Source: Methanomicrobiales archaeon HGW-Methanomicrobiales-2
GTDB taxonomy: Archaea; Halobacteriota; Methanomicrobia; Methanomicrobiales; Methanoculleaceae
DNA length: 64,000 nucleotides
Reading direction: 5' to 3'
Assembly (NCBI GenBank): GCA_002839645.1
Contig: PGYL01000012.1
Coordinates: 12,706 to 76,705, forward strand
Each line of letters starts with the position of its first letter. Position 1 is the stretch's first letter. Positions 50,143 through 59,137 of this stretch are shown here, one piece after another. The notes below the pieces were generated by a model. The model was not told where the DNA came from and made no database searches. It worked only from the letters and a program-made list of their open reading frames with translations. The position numbers and the translations under genes were made by a program.

Positions 50143-50214
50143 GCCGAGGTGGCGGAACGGCTACGCGGTTGACTGCAGATCAACTACATCCCGGTTCGAC
50201 TCCGGGCCTCGGCT
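50143..50214 (+). tRNA. tRNA-Cys (GCA)
   Basis: Acceptor GCCGAGG/CCTCGGC, U73, anticodon arm GTTGA-CTGCAGA-TCAAC with G37, T arm CCCGG-TTCGACT-CCGGG. Confidence 0.96.
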
Positions 50215-50225
50215 TGAGGTATCCC

Positions 50226-54358
<4,133 letters not shown>

Positions 54359-54362
<4 letters not shown>

Positions 54363-54841
54363 CAACACAAGCACACAAGAATGAATCAGCCCTCCTGGTC
54401 TTCGGGTGCCCGGAGGTCCCGGTGCAGGCGGCAATCGGCCTCTACCTTGCAGGCCGGCTCGGTGAAGGCGGCTACGACGTCCTCAGTGCCGGAAACCCCT
54501 CGGTTCTCGTCCTCCTTCGCGTCTCCGACTGGAAGAAGCGCTACATCAGAAGGACCATCGACCTCGACCGCTGCATCGGAGAGGTGGCGGAAGGCAAGAG
54601 AGATGCCGGTCTCTGCGTGGTCTTCGCTCATAACGATGCCGGCATCTCATACGCCGCCTCGATGCGCTATCTCCTCCCGGATTCGCGCCTCATCGTCGTC
54701 GTCTTCGGCCGGAACGCCGAAGAACTCGCAGCGCAGATTGAGTTTCCCTGCGAAAAGGTCGTGGAGAAAGCGGTCCACAACCCGGGGAAACTGAAGAAAG
54801 GGATCGACGAGGTCTTCGGATGGCGTGCATCGACGAGCTGA
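54359..54841 (+). CDS. DUF1890-family protein
   Basis: LLVFGCPEVPVQ, AGNPS, HNDAGISY, AVHNP; ATGA overlap with metX. Confidence 0.75.
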
Positions 54842-55110
54842 ACCCGGAGATTCTTCTCCGGGGAGCCTCTTTTGCCGAGTGCCGGGCAACGGTGGAGAAA
54901 CGCTGCCGCGAGGTCTACTACGTTGACCCGGGGTACGCGATCTTTGATACGCATATCATCGGGGTCCCGCCGATCGCCGTCGGGGTGGAGGATACCTTCA
55001 TCGTCTTCCCCTTCACCAAACCCTGCTACGGGACCTACCTGATCCGGGTGCCGGGGGGCGAGGAGGTCGAACGACTCCGGAAGAAAGGCAAAACCGGAAG
55101 GAAACCATGA
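54820..55110 (+). CDS. DUF1894-family protein
   Basis: MACID...PGYAIFD...GVPPIAVG...FPFTKPCYGT. Confidence 0.75.
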   Translation: MACIDELNPEILLRGASFAECRATVEKRCREVYYVDPGYAIFDTHIIGVPPIAVGVEDTFIVFPFTKPCYGTYLIRVPGGEEVERLRKKGKTGRKP

Positions 55111-56243
55111 ACGGCACGGAACAGGTCTGGCTGGTGCGTTACTCCGAGATCTTCCTCAAGTCGGAGCCTGTCCGCCGGGAATGGGAGAAGACGCTTATCC
55201 GGAACATCAGGCGGGTGCTACCCGGTGCAAAAGCCCGGCGGGAGCGCGGGAGGATCTGGCTTGCCGGGGAGGTCGACCCGGAGGTGCTCAGGAACGTCTT
55301 CGGGGTCGTCTCGTTCTCGCTCTGCGACGTCGTGCCGCTTGAGGGACTGCCGGCGGGTCTCCTCGCGTTCTGTGATGGTCACGGTATCACGGAGGCCGCG
55401 ACCTTCGCCCTCCGGATCCGGCGTGTCGGGAAGCATCCCTTCACCTCCCGGGATCTTGCCGAACGGCTTGGTGACCTGGTCTGTGCGGAGTACCCGCATC
55501 TTCAGGTCGATCTCGACGACCCGGAGCGGGAGATCTTCATCGAGGTCCGGGACGGGACCTGCTACCTCTTCGACCGGAAGATCCCGGCCGTCGGCGGCAT
55601 CCCCCTCGGCGTCGAGGGGACGCTCGTCGCCCTCGTCTCCGGTGGGATCGACTCCCCGGTCGCGGCCTACCTGATGATGAAGCGCGGGTGCCGGATCGTT
55701 CCGCTCTACGTCGGGCTCGAAGGCTACCTCGATGAGACGAACCTCGCCCGGACGAAGGCCACGGTTGAGGCCCTCCGTCGCTACCAGCCCGACATCGAAC
55801 TTCTGGTCGTCGAGGACGGCTACCTCGCCCGGGCACGGCGGGCGCTCGAAGAGTGGGGAGAGGAGCGCTATACCTGCCTCCTCTGCAAGCGGAGGATGTA
55901 CCGAATCGCCGCCGAGGTCGCGGGGAGGACAGGGGCGAAGGGTTTCGTCACCGGCGAGTCGATGGGCCAGGTCGCATCGCAGACCCTCGACAACCTGGCG
56001 GTGCTCACCGATGCGGCGGCGATCCCGGTCTACCGGCCGCTGATCGCGTTCGACAAGGAGGACGTCGTCCGGCTCGCTCGCGAGATCGGGACGTTCGACG
56101 CCTCGATCGCCCCGGCCGGCGGCTGCAGAGCAGTACCGGCACGACCGTCCACGGCTGCGAGGATCGAGGCGGTCCGTGCACTCGAAGAGGCGGTAGGGGA
56201 TGCCGGAGACGTGGGAGTGCTGCCAATTCAAGTACCTGAATGA
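55107..56243 (+). CDS. thiI: tRNA 4-thiouridine synthase ThiI
   Basis: [15 protein letters not shown] domain, PP-loop [27 protein letters not shown], distal Cys. Confidence 0.93.
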
Positions 56244-56263
56244 CAAGAGGGAGATCGATAGCG

Positions 56264-57196
56264 ATGGGACGGATATACCATGACATCACCTGGACGATCG
56301 GGAACACCCCGCTCGTCCGGCTGAATCGGGTGACGGAAGGCTCCCGGGCGACGGTCCTCGCCAAGGTGGAGTCGTTCAACCCGATGGGGAGCGTGAAAGA
56401 CCGGATAGGGGTCGCGATGATCGACGAGGCCGAACGGGCCGGCGAGATCCGGGAGGGGACGACGATCGTCGAGGCGACGAGCGGGAACACCGGGATTGCA
56501 CTTGCGTTCGTCTGCGCGGCCCGCGGCTACCCGCTCAGGCTCGTGATGCCCGAGACGATGAGCATGGAGCGGCGCAAGCTCCTCGCAGCACTTGGTGCCG
56601 AGGTGGTCCTCACGCCCGGGGCCGGGGGGATGAAGGGAGCGGTCGACCGTGCGGCCCGGATCGCCGCCGAGAGGCCGGACACCTACTTCGTGCCCCGGCA
56701 GTTCGAGAACCCGGCGAACCCCGCCGTCCACCGCCGGACGACGGCCGAGGAGATCTGGCGGGACACCGACGGGACCGTCGACGCCGTCGTCGCAGGCGTC
56801 GGGACGGGCGGGACAATCACCGGGGTTGCCGAGGTCCTCAAGGCGCGAAGACCGTCCTTTAAGGCGATCGCCGTCGAACCGGTGGAGTCCCCCGTCCTCT
56901 CCGGAGGACCGGCCGGCCCGCACCGGATCCAGGGGATCGGGGCCGGGTTCGTGCCGCAGGTGCTCCGGACCGATCTCGTCGACGAGGTATTCCAGGTCAC
57001 CTCCGCGGATGCCTTTGCGATGAGCCGCCTGCTTGCCCGGAAGGAGGGGATCCTCGCTGGCATCTCGTCGGGCGCGGCTGTCCACGCCGCCTGTGAGGTT
57101 GCCCGCCGGCCGGATTACGAGGGGAAGGTTATCGTCGTGATCCTCCCGGATACCGGCGAGCGGTATCTCTCGACGGATCTCTTCGAGGCGCAGTAG
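56264..57196 (+). CDS. cysK: Cysteine synthase A (O-acetylserine sulfhydrylase)
   Basis: [44 protein letters not shown]. Confidence 0.96.
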
Positions 57197-57210: not shown

Positions 57211-58164
57211 GTGAACCTCAGGGAGGATATCCGGACAGTCTTTGCAAAAGACCCGGCGGCCCGGTCGACGATCGAGGTGATCTGCTGCTACCCGGGCCTC
57301 CACGCGATCTGGGCGCACCGGATCGCGCATGCCTTCTATCGCCGCCGGCTCTACTTCCCGGCCCGTCTGGTCTCTCATATCGCCCGGGCGCTGACCGGGA
57401 TCGAGATCCACCCCGGAGCGAAGATCGGCCGCCGGGTCTTCATCGACCACGGCTCAGGCGTCGTGATCGGGGAGACGGCGGAGGTTGGGGACGACGTCCT
57501 GATCTACATGGGTGTGGTGCTCGGCGGCACCGCGCTCGAGCAGACGAAACGGCACCCGACCATCGAGGATAACGTCGTCATCGGGTCGGGGGCGAGCGTT
57601 CTCGGCCCCATCACCGTCGGGCGCGGGGCAAAGATCGGCGCCGGTTCGGTCGTCGTCCACCCCGTCCCCGCCGGTGCGACGGTCGTGGGCGTTCCGGGCA
57701 GGCTTGCCGGCCCAAAGTGCCAGAAGGGCCAGGAGAAACTCGACCGTGGCGATCTCCCCGACCCGATGCTCCGGGTGGTCAGCCGCATGCTTGATAGGCA
57801 GAATCGGATCGAAGAGCGGCTCCGGGCGGTGGAGCGGTCGGGTCTGGTTGGCGATAAACGGCGGGAGGAGATCGTAATCGAGGAGAGCGTCCGGGCGGCA
57901 CTTAAAGAAGTGATCGACCCGGAGGTCGGGATCGACGTCGTCGACCTCGGTCTGATCAAGGGGATCACCGTCCAGGACTCCTCGGTGCTTGTGGAGATGG
58001 TCCTGACCACCGCCGCCTGCCCGCTCGTCGACTACCTTACTGACCGGGTCCGGCGCCGGGTGCTTGACGTGAGCGGCGTCCGGGACGTCGAGGTCCGGGT
58101 GCTCGACGAGCCCTGGGACTGGGACCGGTTCTTCGGTCAGAGGGACGTTCTCAGGGAATTCTGA
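57211..58164 (+). CDS. cysE: Serine O-acetyltransferase fused to a C-terminal SufT/DUF59 (FeS_assembly_P) domain
   Basis: KDPAARS...[32 protein letters not shown]; linker PDP; then DPE-X27-T-X3-C domain ([15 protein letters not shown]...LTTAACP). Confidence 0.92.
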
Positions 58165-59137
58165 AGTCGGGTTTACCGGGGAGGTCCAGCATCCGCCGGA
58201 TTGCCGTCCGCGCCCGGGCGGCGGTATCCTCCGGGACCGTCACCCGCGGCTCGAGCCGTTCGAGGGCCGCGAGCACCTTTGCGAGATCGGTCTTCTTCAT
58301 GTTGACGCAGACCGCCTTATTCGAGAGGGGGTAGAAGACTTTCCCCGGGCACTTCTTTTCGAGCTGGTGGAGGAGCCCGACCTCGGTGCCGATGACGAAC
58401 TCCCGTCCCGGACTTGCGCAGGCGTGCCGCACCATCCCTGAGGTCGAGAAGACGTGATCGGCAAGGTCGATCACCTCGGGCCGGCACTCGGGGTGGACGA
58501 GCACCTCGGCGTCCGGATGGGCCCGGCGGGCTTCCTCCACATCCCCGGCCGTCATCCGGTCGTGGACGATGCAGTAGCCATCCCAGGGGAGGATCTCTTT
58601 TTTGGTGAACCGGGCGACGTAGCGGCCGAGGTTTCGGTCGGGGAGGAAGATCACCTGCTCTGCGTCGAGCGACTCGACGACGGCGACGGCGTTTGCGGAG
58701 GTGCAGCAGATGTCGCTCTCCGCCTTCACTTCGGCCGAGGTGTTGACGTAGGCGACGACGGCGGCGTCCGGGAACCGCTCGCGGAGCACCCGGACCTCGC
58801 CGGGGGCGACCATCTCCGCCATCGGGCAGCAGGCGTCGGCTGCGGGGAGAAGGACAGTCTTTGCCGGCGCGAGGATCGCGGCCGTCTCGGCCATGAAGTC
58901 GACGCCGGCAAAGACGATGACGTCGGCGTCGATCGCCGCCGCCGCCCGTGCGAGTTCGAGCGAGTCCCCGACGAGGTCGGCGACCTCCTGCACCTCGGGG
59001 ATCTGGTAGTTGTGCGCGAGGATGACGGCGTCGCGCTCCTCTTTCAACGCGGCTATCCGTTCGGCGAGGGTTCGATCGGGACTGGTGGACGGGATGGTAT
59101 CACAACCTCTTCTGGTCAAAGGTGCAGCCTTCTTCAC
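58151..59137 (-). CDS. nadA: Quinolinate synthase NadA
   Basis: ILAHNYQ, GDSLEL, GVDFMAE, CPMA, YVNTSA, CCTSANA, HPEC, STSGM, CVNMK; true start uncertain (GTG at 59137 or ATC at 59095). Confidence 0.94.

What the first reader, a model, noticed from the sequence alone, without database searches (positions are those of the whole stretch)
54359..55110. DUF1890-DUF1894 pair embedded in the sulfur operon
Two uncharacterised archaeal families overlap metX, each other and thiI. Both carry cysteines in conserved-looking motifs (GCPEVP; MACID and TKPCYG). The context predicts a sulfur-relay or Fe-S role feeding ThiI/SepCysS, which would give these families a first functional lead.
Basis: inference. 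Interest (0 to 1): 0.55.

Follow-up and report, generated by a model that had tools for sequence, protein, structure and literature searches.

The report
Methanogen cysteine protein pair tied to sulfur
Two small methanogen-only proteins of unknown function, which carry three never-varying cysteines between them, sit inside a sulfur-metabolism operon here and next to different sulfur-inserting enzymes in other methanogens, so they are a good untested candidate for a sulfur-handling module.

Summary
Window 54359-54841 encodes a DUF1890 protein (PF09001, 170 bits) and 54820-55110 a DUF1894 protein (PF08979, 114 bits). They are translationally coupled to each other, to MetX upstream and to ThiI downstream, inside a tRNA-Cys-SepCysS-MetY-MetX-[pair]-ThiI-CysK-CysE operon.

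- Cysteines: across 164 and 181 fetched homologues, DUF1890 Cys19 and DUF1894 Cys3 and Cys69 never vary. The other cysteines vary.
- Linkage: the pair or a lone DUF1894 lies beside different sulfur-related genes in different lineages. These are CutA-FdhD (most Methanomicrobiales), ThiF-YcaO-TfuA, MoaD/ThiS-MoaE, core MetE (Methanobacteria) and this Cys/Met/ThiI operon (several genera).
- Exceptions: Methanosarcinaceae and a few other lineages show no sulfur link.

The window copy is an accessory paralogue. This genome's primary copy follows NifS-CutA-FdhD.

The function is still inferred. No fold match, paper or experiment assigns a mechanism, and the genome also has rhodanese, TusA and cysteine desulfurases.

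Best reading (about 0.5): a cysteine-based sulfur carrier or adaptor for sulfur-inserting enzymes.

Earlier notes of this scan saw several of the same neighbourhoods in other genomes.

The parts
50143..50214 (+). tRNA-Cys (GCA), first element of the operon
   Evidence: ARAGORN
50226..51599 (+). SepCysS (Sep-tRNA:Cys-tRNA synthase)
   Evidence: NCBIfam PRK09331 621 bits and TIGR02539 407 bits. The ATG at 50226 lies 11 nt after the tRNA.
51596..52891 (+). MetY (O-acetylhomoserine sulfhydrylase); start overlaps the SepCysS stop as ATGA
   Evidence: Pfam Cys_Met_Meta_PP 454 bits, TIGR01326 647 bits; start read
52884..54362 (+). MetX (homoserine O-acetyltransferase) with two C-terminal CBS domains
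   Evidence: NF001209 539 bits; Pfam CBS 102 bits
54359..54841 (+). DUF1890 protein of the S-clade paralogue group. Invariant Cys19 sits in a beta1-G-C-P-E-x-P-helix motif. Invariant D59, Y64 and H142 (numbering from the ATG at 54353).
   Evidence: PF09001 170.5 bits. Matches PDB 1KJN/MTH0777 at E 1.9e-19. AF2 model pLDDT 94, Z 23.6 to 1KJN. Conservation. Tree.
54820..55110 (+). DUF1894 protein with invariant Cys3, Lys67, Cys69 and Gly71. It overlaps DUF1890 by 22 nt and ThiI by 4 nt.
   Evidence: PF08979 114.3 bits. Matches PDB 1Z9V/MTH0776 at E 1.2e-18. Conservation.
55107..56243 (+). ThiI (ferredoxin-like + THUMP + PP-loop domains, no rhodanese domain)
   Evidence: Pfam ThiI 195 bits, THUMP and ThiI_fer; TIGR00342 273 bits
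56240..57196 (+). CysK (O-acetylserine sulfhydrylase)
   Evidence: TIGR01139 461 bits
57211..58164 (+). CysE fused to a DUF59/SufT-like Fe-S assembly domain
   Evidence: TIGR01172 242 bits; Pfam FeS_assembly_P 70.7 bits

Best explanation
DUF1890 and DUF1894 most likely form a two-subunit, cysteine-based sulfur-handling module specific to methanogens and their relatives. It would act as a carrier or adaptor that passes activated sulfur to sulfur-inserting enzymes, either as a cysteine persulfide or as sulfide held on a metal or Fe-S site.

In this window an accessory paralogous pair (the S-clade) is built into a second-copy sulfur operon. There it would serve the co-translated ThiI and/or SepCysS. 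The genome's primary pair would serve FdhD.

Shown here: family membership, operon coupling, invariant cysteines, obligate adjacency of the two genes, and recurrent but varying sulfur-gene neighbours.

Inferred: that the two proteins form a complex, that the cysteines carry sulfur, and which enzyme is the client.
For: 1. Tight pairing. DUF1894 directly follows DUF1890 on the same strand, usually overlapping, in about 118 of 123 loci. The order is reversed but still adjacent in a Methanocaldococcus-like contig.

2. Exactly three invariant cysteines: DUF1890 C19 (163/163) and DUF1894 C3 and C69 (181/181). DUF1890 D59, Y64 and H142 are also invariant. C19 lies at the end of strand 1, just before helix 1 in the AF2 model. 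That is the usual position of nucleophilic or persulfide cysteines (established knowledge).

3. Different sulfur partners in different lineages:
- NifS-CutA-FdhD-pair or CutA-FdhD-pair in 18 Methanomicrobiales loci.
- ThiF-YcaO-TfuA-pair in family f15.
- Pair-ThiS/MoaD-MoaE in family f23, and YcaO-TfuA-ThiS-pair-MoaE in L144.
- Pair followed by core MetE in 85 of 100 Methanobacteria loci.
- SepCysS-MetY-MetX-pair-ThiI-CysK in 11 loci of 4 Methanomicrobiales families.
- Lone DUF1894 directly upstream of FdhD (L186, L187).
- Lone DUF1894 beside marker-14 and YcaO-TfuA (L180-182).

4. Background: only 11.3% of this genome lies within 6 kb of any hit to these families. All 3 DUF1894 loci of the genome do.

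5. The operon carries its own copy of the pair. The S-clade has 99/95 support and is separate from the FdhD-linked P-clade. This suggests a cognate, stoichiometric partner rather than a passenger gene.
Against: - There is no direct evidence of sulfur binding, of a complex, or of any activity.
- Fold searches give no functional relative. DUF1890 matches only its own family structure; the rest is a generic Rossmann-like plateau (Z at most 10.9). DUF1894 has no match at Z 5 or more.
- Several lineages show no sulfur neighbours:
  - Methanosarcinaceae, where the neighbours are AspK-PurM.
  - Family f10, where DUF1890 and DUF1894 are unlinked.
  - Four genera of family f4.
  - Family f29.
- DUF1894 occurs without DUF1890 in families f14 and f7, so the two are not always obligate partners.
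- The genome has rhodanese (4 loci), TusA (3) and several NifS/SufS genes, so no carrier is obviously missing.
- CysK and MetY use free sulfide and need no carrier.
- Sulfur genes cluster with one another in this genome, which inflates guilt by association.
Confidence: 0.5

Rival explanations
1. The family is specifically a maturation factor for the molybdenum or tungsten pterin cofactor. It would partner FdhD and molybdopterin synthase in sulfurating or inserting the cofactor of formylmethanofuran and formate dehydrogenases. The window copy would be a derived paralogue.
For: - FdhD is the commonest immediate neighbour: 18 Methanomicrobiales loci, plus lone DUF1894-FdhD pairs.
- MoaD/ThiS-MoaE follow the pair in family f23, and ThiF-ThiS-MoaE lie in the same cluster in L012.
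- The family is restricted to methanogen-type archaea.
- XdhC-family structures (2we7, 3on5) appear among the DUF1890 fold hits at Z 10.4 and 9.6.
Against: - The XdhC hits sit inside a plateau of generic Rossmann-like matches, so they carry no weight.
- This reading does not explain the YcaO-TfuA, MetE, ThiI/SepCysS or MtnA-like neighbours.
- Methylotrophic Methanosarcinaceae lack DUF1890. From established knowledge they still carry formylmethanofuran dehydrogenase; this was not checked here.
Confidence: 0.15
2. The pair carries no sulfur. Instead it services the sulfur enzymes. It could be a thiol/disulfide (or persulfide) reductase that resets their catalytic cysteines, or a metal or Fe-S chaperone for them.
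For: - Three invariant cysteines plus invariant His and Asp would suit a redox or metal site.
- By established knowledge, several client candidates (ThiI, SepCysS, FdhD) use cysteine disulfide/persulfide cycles or Fe-S clusters.
- Recurrent neighbours include CutA1, a DUF59/SufT domain, CxxCxxCC, and the metal-binding DUF2284.
Against: - No thioredoxin-like or known reductase fold, and no CxxC motif. The cysteines are spread over two proteins.
- The data here cannot separate this reading from a carrier role.
Confidence: 0.15
3. The pair is an accessory of homocysteine or methionine metabolism. It might support core MetE, MetX/MetY or methionine salvage.
For: - Core MetE directly follows the pair in 85 of 100 Methanobacteria loci.
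- MetY-MetX precede the pair in the window-type operon.
- An IF-2B/MtnA-like gene precedes the pair in the Methanocaldococcus-like contig.
Against: - The commonest Methanomicrobiales context (FdhD) and the YcaO-TfuA and MoaD/MoaE contexts have nothing to do with methionine.
- In this genome MetE lies on another contig, far from any copy of the pair.
Confidence: 0.08
4. The sulfur neighbourhoods are hitch-hiking and the pair has an unrelated role. One possibility is a tRNA-linked or other housekeeping function.
For: - A free-standing or fused homologue of the threonyl-tRNA synthetase editing domain sits directly before, or fused to, DUF1890 in several S-clade loci.
- tRNA-Cys, SepCysS and ThiI in the operon all act on tRNA.
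- Methanosarcinaceae and some other lineages show no sulfur link.
Against: Five different sulfur-related partner sets in separate lineages, against an 11% background, are hard to explain by chance. FdhD, YcaO-TfuA, MoaE and MetE are not tRNA enzymes.
Confidence: 0.12

Closest known systems
MTH0777 (PDB 1KJN) and MTH0776 (PDB 1Z9V) of Methanothermobacter thermautotrophicus
   Same: They belong to the same families: E 1.9e-19 and 1.2e-18 by sequence, and Z 23.6 for the DUF1890 model. They are adjacent genes there too, followed by core MetE (L151).
   Different: - They are structural-genomics entries with no assigned function.
- The window proteins belong to a different paralogue group (S-clade) in a different operon.
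- The AF2 model of DUF1894 did not retrieve 1Z9V in the fold searches.
TusA / rhodanese-type persulfide carriers (for example E. coli TusA, or the rhodanese domain of bacterial ThiI)
   Same: - The proposed role is the same: a small protein with a single essential cysteine that feeds ThiI, MoaD and other acceptors.
- DUF1890's G-C-P-E-x-P motif at a strand-to-helix junction recalls the TusA CPxP motif. This comes from memory and is only a lead.
   Different: - No sequence or fold relationship was found.
- DUF1890 is a six-stranded Rossmann-like domain and works with a second protein.
- The genome also encodes true TusA and rhodanese proteins.
IscS-FdhD sulfur relay for Mo-bisPGD sulfuration (E. 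coli)
   Same: This genome's primary pair lies in a NifS-CutA-FdhD-DUF1890-DUF1894 string. That places it within a desulfurase-to-FdhD module.
   Different: The E. coli relay needs no DUF1890 or DUF1894 proteins. Their step in the relay, if they have one, is unknown.
Three-cysteine [4Fe-4S] sulfur-transfer sites of TtuA/NcsA and methanogen ThiI
   Same: Exactly three invariant cysteines in an anaerobe's sulfur-gene context.
   Different: Here the cysteines lie on two polypeptides. No cluster has been shown and no coordinates were available to test the geometry. The resemblance is conceptual only.
YcaO-TfuA thioamidation system of McrA, with ThiS/ThiF (Nayak et al. 2017, PMC5589413)
   Same: That paper noted thiF, sufS, moaD, moaE and moeB near ycaO-tfuA. 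The pair sits in the same neighbourhoods.
   Different: A term search of that paper returned no passage naming the pair, and 'DUF1890'/'DUF1894' occur in no paper of the searched library. No role in thioglycine formation has been tested.

Membership tests
Pfam DUF1890 (PF09001) | Full-length match to the family HMM above the gathering score | tested here: met
   170.5 bits against a cut-off of 25, covering model positions 1-141 of 141
Pfam DUF1890 (PF09001) | Fold of the family's solved member 1KJN | tested here: met
   AF2 model pLDDT 94.2. VIA-align Z 23.6, rmsd 1.8 over 146 residues. Foldseek TM 0.83-0.89.
Pfam DUF1890 (PF09001) | Family-invariant residues (G-C-P motif, D59, Y64, H142-N-P) | tested here: met
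   All are present in the window protein and in 163-164 of 164 homologues
Pfam DUF1894 (PF08979) | Full-length match to the family HMM above the gathering score | tested here: met
   114.3 bits against a cut-off of 25, covering model positions 1-88 of 88. E 1.2e-18 to 1Z9V.
Pfam DUF1894 (PF08979) | Family-invariant residues (Cys3, K-P-C-x-G) | tested here: met
   C3, C69 and G71 are present in 181 of 181 homologues
Pfam DUF1894 (PF08979) | Fold of the solved member 1Z9V | tested here: inconclusive
   The AF2 model (pLDDT 87) did not retrieve 1Z9V or any chain at Z 5 or more
TusA/SirA family (PF01206) | Match to the family HMM | tested here: not met
   The Pfam scan of DUF1890 at E up to 0.01 returns DUF1890 only
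TusA/SirA family (PF01206) | Two-layer alpha/beta TusA fold | tested here: inconclusive
   No TusA chain is among the listed fold matches
Rhodanese (PF00581) | Match to the family HMM | tested here: not met
   No hit for either protein. True rhodanese genes lie elsewhere in the genome.
XdhC-type cofactor chaperone | Specific structural similarity to the XdhC Rossmann domain | tested here: inconclusive
   2we7 at Z 10.4 and 3on5 at Z 9.6 lie within a plateau of unrelated Rossmann-like folds at Z 9-11
Fe-S or persulfide sulfur carriers (functional class) | Bound persulfide or cluster, and transfer to an acceptor | not testable with these tools
   This needs anaerobic biochemistry. Model coordinates are not returned, so cysteine geometry could not be measured either.

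The most novel reading that the evidence does not exclude
DUF1890 and DUF1894 form a heterodimer. Its three invariant cysteines (one plus two), with the invariant His and Asp, hold a persulfide or an open-site Fe-S cluster. That complex would be a general sulfur-donor hub of methanogens, supplying FdhD, MoaD/ThiS-ThiF, YcaO-TfuA, ThiI and SepCysS. It would be the long-sought link between sulfide and these acceptors, built on folds unrelated to IscS, TusA or rhodanese.
Probability: 0.25. Interest if true: 0.85.

Novelty: new variant of a known kind. Interest (0 to 1): 0.6.

Why it matters
It is still unclear how methanogens move sulfur into tRNA, molybdopterin and tungstopterin cofactors, the thioglycine of methyl-coenzyme M reductase, and Cys-tRNA. 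By established knowledge many of them rely on sulfide rather than on cysteine desulfurase relays.

Two methanogen-signature families with solved structures have had no function for about twenty years. This analysis gives both a concrete, testable lead:
- defined residues to mutate (DUF1890 C19; DUF1894 C3 and C69);
- defined candidate clients (FdhD, ThiI, MoaD/ThiS, TfuA/YcaO, SepCysS);
- genetically tractable hosts that carry the genes.

If the lead holds, it adds a new protein type to sulfur trafficking. It would also bear on maturation of the key methane-forming enzymes.

Tried and rejected
Neighbourhoods were rebuilt instead from fetched genome stretches, my own ORF clustering and Pfam/NCBIfam scans of cluster representatives.
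- The search for related loci with a broad 14-sequence alignment failed for lack of a conserved stretch. The narrower query returned only Methanobacteriaceae. Methanococcales context therefore rests on one metagenome contig.
- Literature searches gave no functional paper. I searched DUF1890, DUF1894, the Pfam and COG numbers, and MTH0776/0777, MJ0452/0453 and MMP0700-0702. COG4081 = DUF1890 and the MJ/MMP locus tags are from my memory or from synteny and are unverified.
- Fold searches gave no functional relative for either protein.
- I tested whether unknown ORFs next to lone DUF1894 genes are divergent DUF1890. They are not: hhalign probability is below 1% for all three.
- The 360-aa protein upstream of the pair in Methanobacteria has no Pfam or NCBIfam hit. 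Its atlas neighbours are unnamed archaeal clusters, one auto-named 'putative oligosaccharide repeat unit polymerase'. Weaker bacterial hits carry Wzy_C or O-antigen-ligase domains. It is probably an envelope protein and uninformative.
- The AIR-synthase-like neighbour in Methanosarcinaceae is plain PurM, not a SelD- or HypE-like sulfur activator.
- I rejected the argument that the pair replaces missing rhodanese or TusA. The genome has both, plus NifS/SufS.
- I did not build a read-through fusion to model the heterodimer. The structure tool returns no coordinates, so cysteine distances could not have been read.

Full report
**What is in the window**

The organism is a Methanoculleus species. 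The closest database homologues carry Methanoculleus names and GC content is about 65%.

On the plus strand the genes are chained with almost no gaps:
- tRNA-Cys, 50143-50214
- SepCysS, 50226-51599
- MetY, 51596-52891; its ATG overlaps the SepCysS stop as ATGA
- MetX with two CBS domains, 52884-54362
- DUF1890, 54359-54841; its ATG overlaps the MetX stop as ATGA, and an alternative ATG lies at 54353
- DUF1894, 54820-55110; a 22-nt overlap with DUF1890
- ThiI, 55107-56243; an ATGA overlap
- CysK, 56240-57196
- a CysE-DUF59 fusion, 57211-58164

Both DUF assignments are full-length Pfam matches far above threshold, at 170.5 and 114.3 bits. NCBIfam has no model for either protein.

**The families**

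The only solved relatives are MTH0777 (1KJN) for DUF1890 and MTH0776 (1Z9V) for DUF1894. These two are neighbouring genes in Methanothermobacter.

The DUF1890 family is very small. It has 67 clusters at 50% identity among 1.8 billion representative proteins.
- It was found in 119 of 121 Methanomicrobiales genomes sampled.
- It was found in 137 of 151 genomes of the Methanobacterium phylum sample.
- In the window's own phylum it occurs only in certain families. It was absent from about 20 other families sampled.

DUF1894 is wider. It is present in every Methanosarcinaceae genome sampled (28/28) and in a further family, f14 (10/10), that lacks DUF1890.

No paper in the searchable library mentions either DUF. 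Gao and Gupta 2007 (PMC1852104) list COG4081/MMP0701 among methanogen-specific proteins. That COG4081 is DUF1890 comes from my memory and is unverified.

**Are the two genes a unit?**

Across 160-odd fetched loci, DUF1894 directly follows DUF1890 on the same strand, usually overlapping by 4-24 nt. The exceptions are:
- contig ends;
- one second copy (L044);
- family f10, where the two genes are unlinked;
- a Methanocaldococcus-like contig, where the order is reversed but still adjacent.

**Are the cysteines conserved?**

Yes, and selectively so.
- DUF1890 Cys19, in a G-C-P-[EQ]-x-P motif, is present in 163 of 163 full-length sequences.
- D59, Y64 and H142 are present in 164 of 164. H93, D95 and N143 are nearly invariant.
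- DUF1894 Cys3 and Cys69 (in K-P-C-x-G) are present in 181 of 181.
- The other cysteines of both proteins vary freely.

The pair therefore carries exactly three invariant cysteines. In the AF2 model (pLDDT 94.2), C19, H93/D95 and H142 all lie just after beta-strands of a Rossmann-like sheet. In such folds that is where active sites usually lie.

**This genome has three loci**

- The primary pair is on contig C38 and scores better against Pfam. It lies in a NifS-type cysteine desulfurase - CutA1 - FdhD - DUF1890 - DUF1894 string.
- The window pair is 46% and 53% identical to the primary pair.
- A third, lone DUF1894 on contig C10 lies 2-4 kb from another FdhD and from a PAPS-reductase-SufS fusion. 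That arrangement is conserved in other Methanoculleus.

Most Methanoculleus species have only one DUF1890, so the window copy is accessory.

A maximum-likelihood tree separates two groups:
- a P-clade (29 rows, support 100/93), linked to FdhD and CutA1;
- an S-clade (18 rows, support 99/95). It holds the window copy, the copies in the same Cys/Met/ThiI operon from four Methanomicrobiales families, and the copies of another family (f23) that precede MoaD/ThiS-MoaE.

The genome also has a second SepCysS-ThiI pair elsewhere, on contig C61. The window operon is therefore a second sulfur set that brings its own DUF pair.

**Neighbourhoods across lineages**

I used unbiased ORF clustering, then Pfam/NCBIfam scans of cluster representatives, then HMMs built from the clusters.

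| Lineage | Context of the pair or of lone DUF1894 |
|---|---|
| Methanomicrobiales | 18 anchors have FdhD directly upstream. 11 have the SepCysS-MetY-MetX-(ThrRS-editing-like)-pair-ThiI-CysK operon or a variant. 5 have CutA1 only. 1 has ThiF. 8 have nothing sulfur-related. |
| Family f4 genera whose pair has no sulfur neighbour | A lone DUF1894 sits immediately upstream of FdhD (L186, L187). |
| Family f15 | ThiF-YcaO-TfuA-pair in 3 of 5 loci; a fourth has ThiF only. |
| Family f23 | Pair-ThiS/MoaD-MoaE-CutA1 in 5 of 6 loci. One locus (L144) reads YcaO-TfuA-ThiS-pair-MoaE. |
| Family f14 | Marker-14 - DUF1894, with YcaO-TfuA 1-2.5 kb away, in 3 of 4 loci. |
| Methanobacteria | Pair followed by core MetE in 85 of 100 loci. 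|
| Methanocaldococcus-like contig | An IF-2B/MtnA-like gene precedes the pair. |
| Methanosarcinaceae | No sulfur link (AspK-PurM). |
| Family f10 | No sulfur link. |
| Family f29 | No sulfur link (marker-14 upstream). |

As a control, 11.3% of positions in this genome lie within 6 kb of any hit to these HMMs, weak paralogue hits included. All three DUF1894 loci do.

The strongest point is that the partners differ between lineages: FdhD, YcaO-TfuA, MoaD/E, MetE and ThiI/SepCysS. Inherited synteny alone therefore cannot explain the pattern.

Nayak et al. 2017 had already noted thiF, sufS, moaD, moaE and moeB near ycaO-tfuA. A term search of that paper returned no passage naming the DUF pair, and the DUF names occur in no paper of the library.

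**Structure**

DUF1890 matches only 1KJN (Z 23.6). Below that lies a flat plateau of Rossmann, flavodoxin and CheY-like folds at Z 9-11. The plateau includes UbiX-like flavoproteins and two XdhC-family chains, none standing out.

The DUF1894 model (pLDDT 87) has no match at Z 5 or more and does not retrieve 1Z9V. The fold may be an orphan, or the model and the NMR structure may disagree.

**Interpretation**

Four observations point to a two-protein, cysteine-based module that works with sulfur-inserting enzymes:
- translational coupling of the genes;
- obligate pairing in most lineages;
- three invariant cysteines;
- repeated relocation next to enzymes that accept or insert sulfur.

Whether it carries sulfur, resets the enzymes' cysteines or handles a metal cannot be decided here. 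If it carries sulfur, persulfide versus Fe-S-bound sulfide is equally open.

The evidence against is real:
- no biochemical data exist;
- some lineages lack sulfur neighbours;
- DUF1894 can occur alone;
- the genome has rhodanese, TusA and desulfurases;
- sulfur genes tend to cluster together anyway.

I put about 0.5 on a sulfur-trafficking role. The remainder is spread over four narrower rivals: cofactor-specific, redox or chaperone, methionine-related, and unrelated or tRNA-linked.

**Novelty and verdict**

The families and structures are known. The sulfur lead, the three-cysteine signature, the paralogue split and the cross-lineage neighbourhood pattern appear to be undescribed in the literature I could search.

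Other first-stage notes of this scan saw single instances of these contexts in other genomes: cutA-fdhD-pair, moaE-pair, marker-14-pair and pair-metE. I reproduced each of them here on independent data.

The finding is a sound, specific and testable functional lead. It is not a demonstrated function.

Noticed in passing
L032:8779-9801 (+); L034:9821-10363 (-); also L023, L044, L046; proteins P0229, P0230: A homologue of the archaeal threonyl-tRNA synthetase editing domain (PF08915, up to 165 bits) sits between MetX and DUF1890 in several S-clade operons. It is fused to DUF1890 in a 340-aa protein. This explains the JGI label 'threonyl-tRNA synthetase' on many DUF1890 proteins. It also hints at a link to aminoacyl-tRNA (SepCysS) chemistry. 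The window operon lacks this gene.
   Followed up: partly
L180:7438-8121 (-); L182:7512-8198 (+): In family f14, which lacks DUF1890, two DUF1894 domains are fused in tandem in one 227-228-aa ORF. It lies directly after methanogenesis marker 14 (TIGR03285) and 1-2.5 kb from YcaO-TfuA.
   Followed up: partly
G000 contig C10 = L007:3313-6180 (+); also L183-L185: A 955-aa fusion of a PAPS-reductase-like domain and a SufS-type cysteine desulfurase. It is conserved in Methanoculleus next to an FdhD paralogue and a lone, divergent DUF1894.
   Followed up: partly
G000 contigs C61 (about 15.2-16.9 kb), C47 (about 22.5-25.1 kb), C40 (about 49.4-54.9 kb): The genome holds further sulfur clusters:
- a second SepCysS-ThiI pair;
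- a ThiF-ThiS-MoaE-YcaO-TfuA cluster;
- a MoaE-ThiS-ThiF cluster followed by two class-V aminotransferases and a third FdhD.

The window operon is therefore an additional sulfur set.
   Followed up: no
G000 contig C39:23921-24623 (-): Three TusA-family genes in tandem lie about 1 kb from a class-V aminotransferase hit at about 22.9 kb.
   Followed up: no
window 58151-59137 (-); L141, L143, L145, L147 at about -640 bp from DUF1890: NAD-biosynthesis genes accompany S-clade pairs in two families. NadA (quinolinate synthase) converges on the window-type operon. An aspartate dehydrogenase (NadX-like) gene lies directly upstream of the pair in family f23.
   Followed up: no
L128-L130, about 1.5-5 kb upstream of DUF1890: In large-genome Methanosarcina-like genomes the pair is preceded by a 188-aa protein and three tandem paralogues of about 370-420 aa. 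None has a Pfam or NCBIfam match. An extra divergent DUF1894 is transcribed the other way.
   Followed up: partly
L133:9798-10997 (+); also L132, L135: In family f10, DUF1890 is followed by a DUF362 protein with a 4Fe-4S ferredoxin insert instead of DUF1894. DUF1894 is encoded far away in the same genomes.
   Followed up: partly
model md468d5334a85 (window 54820-55107): The AF2 model of DUF1894 (pLDDT 87) has no structural neighbour at Z 5 or more. It does not retrieve the NMR structure of its own family (1Z9V).
   Followed up: partly
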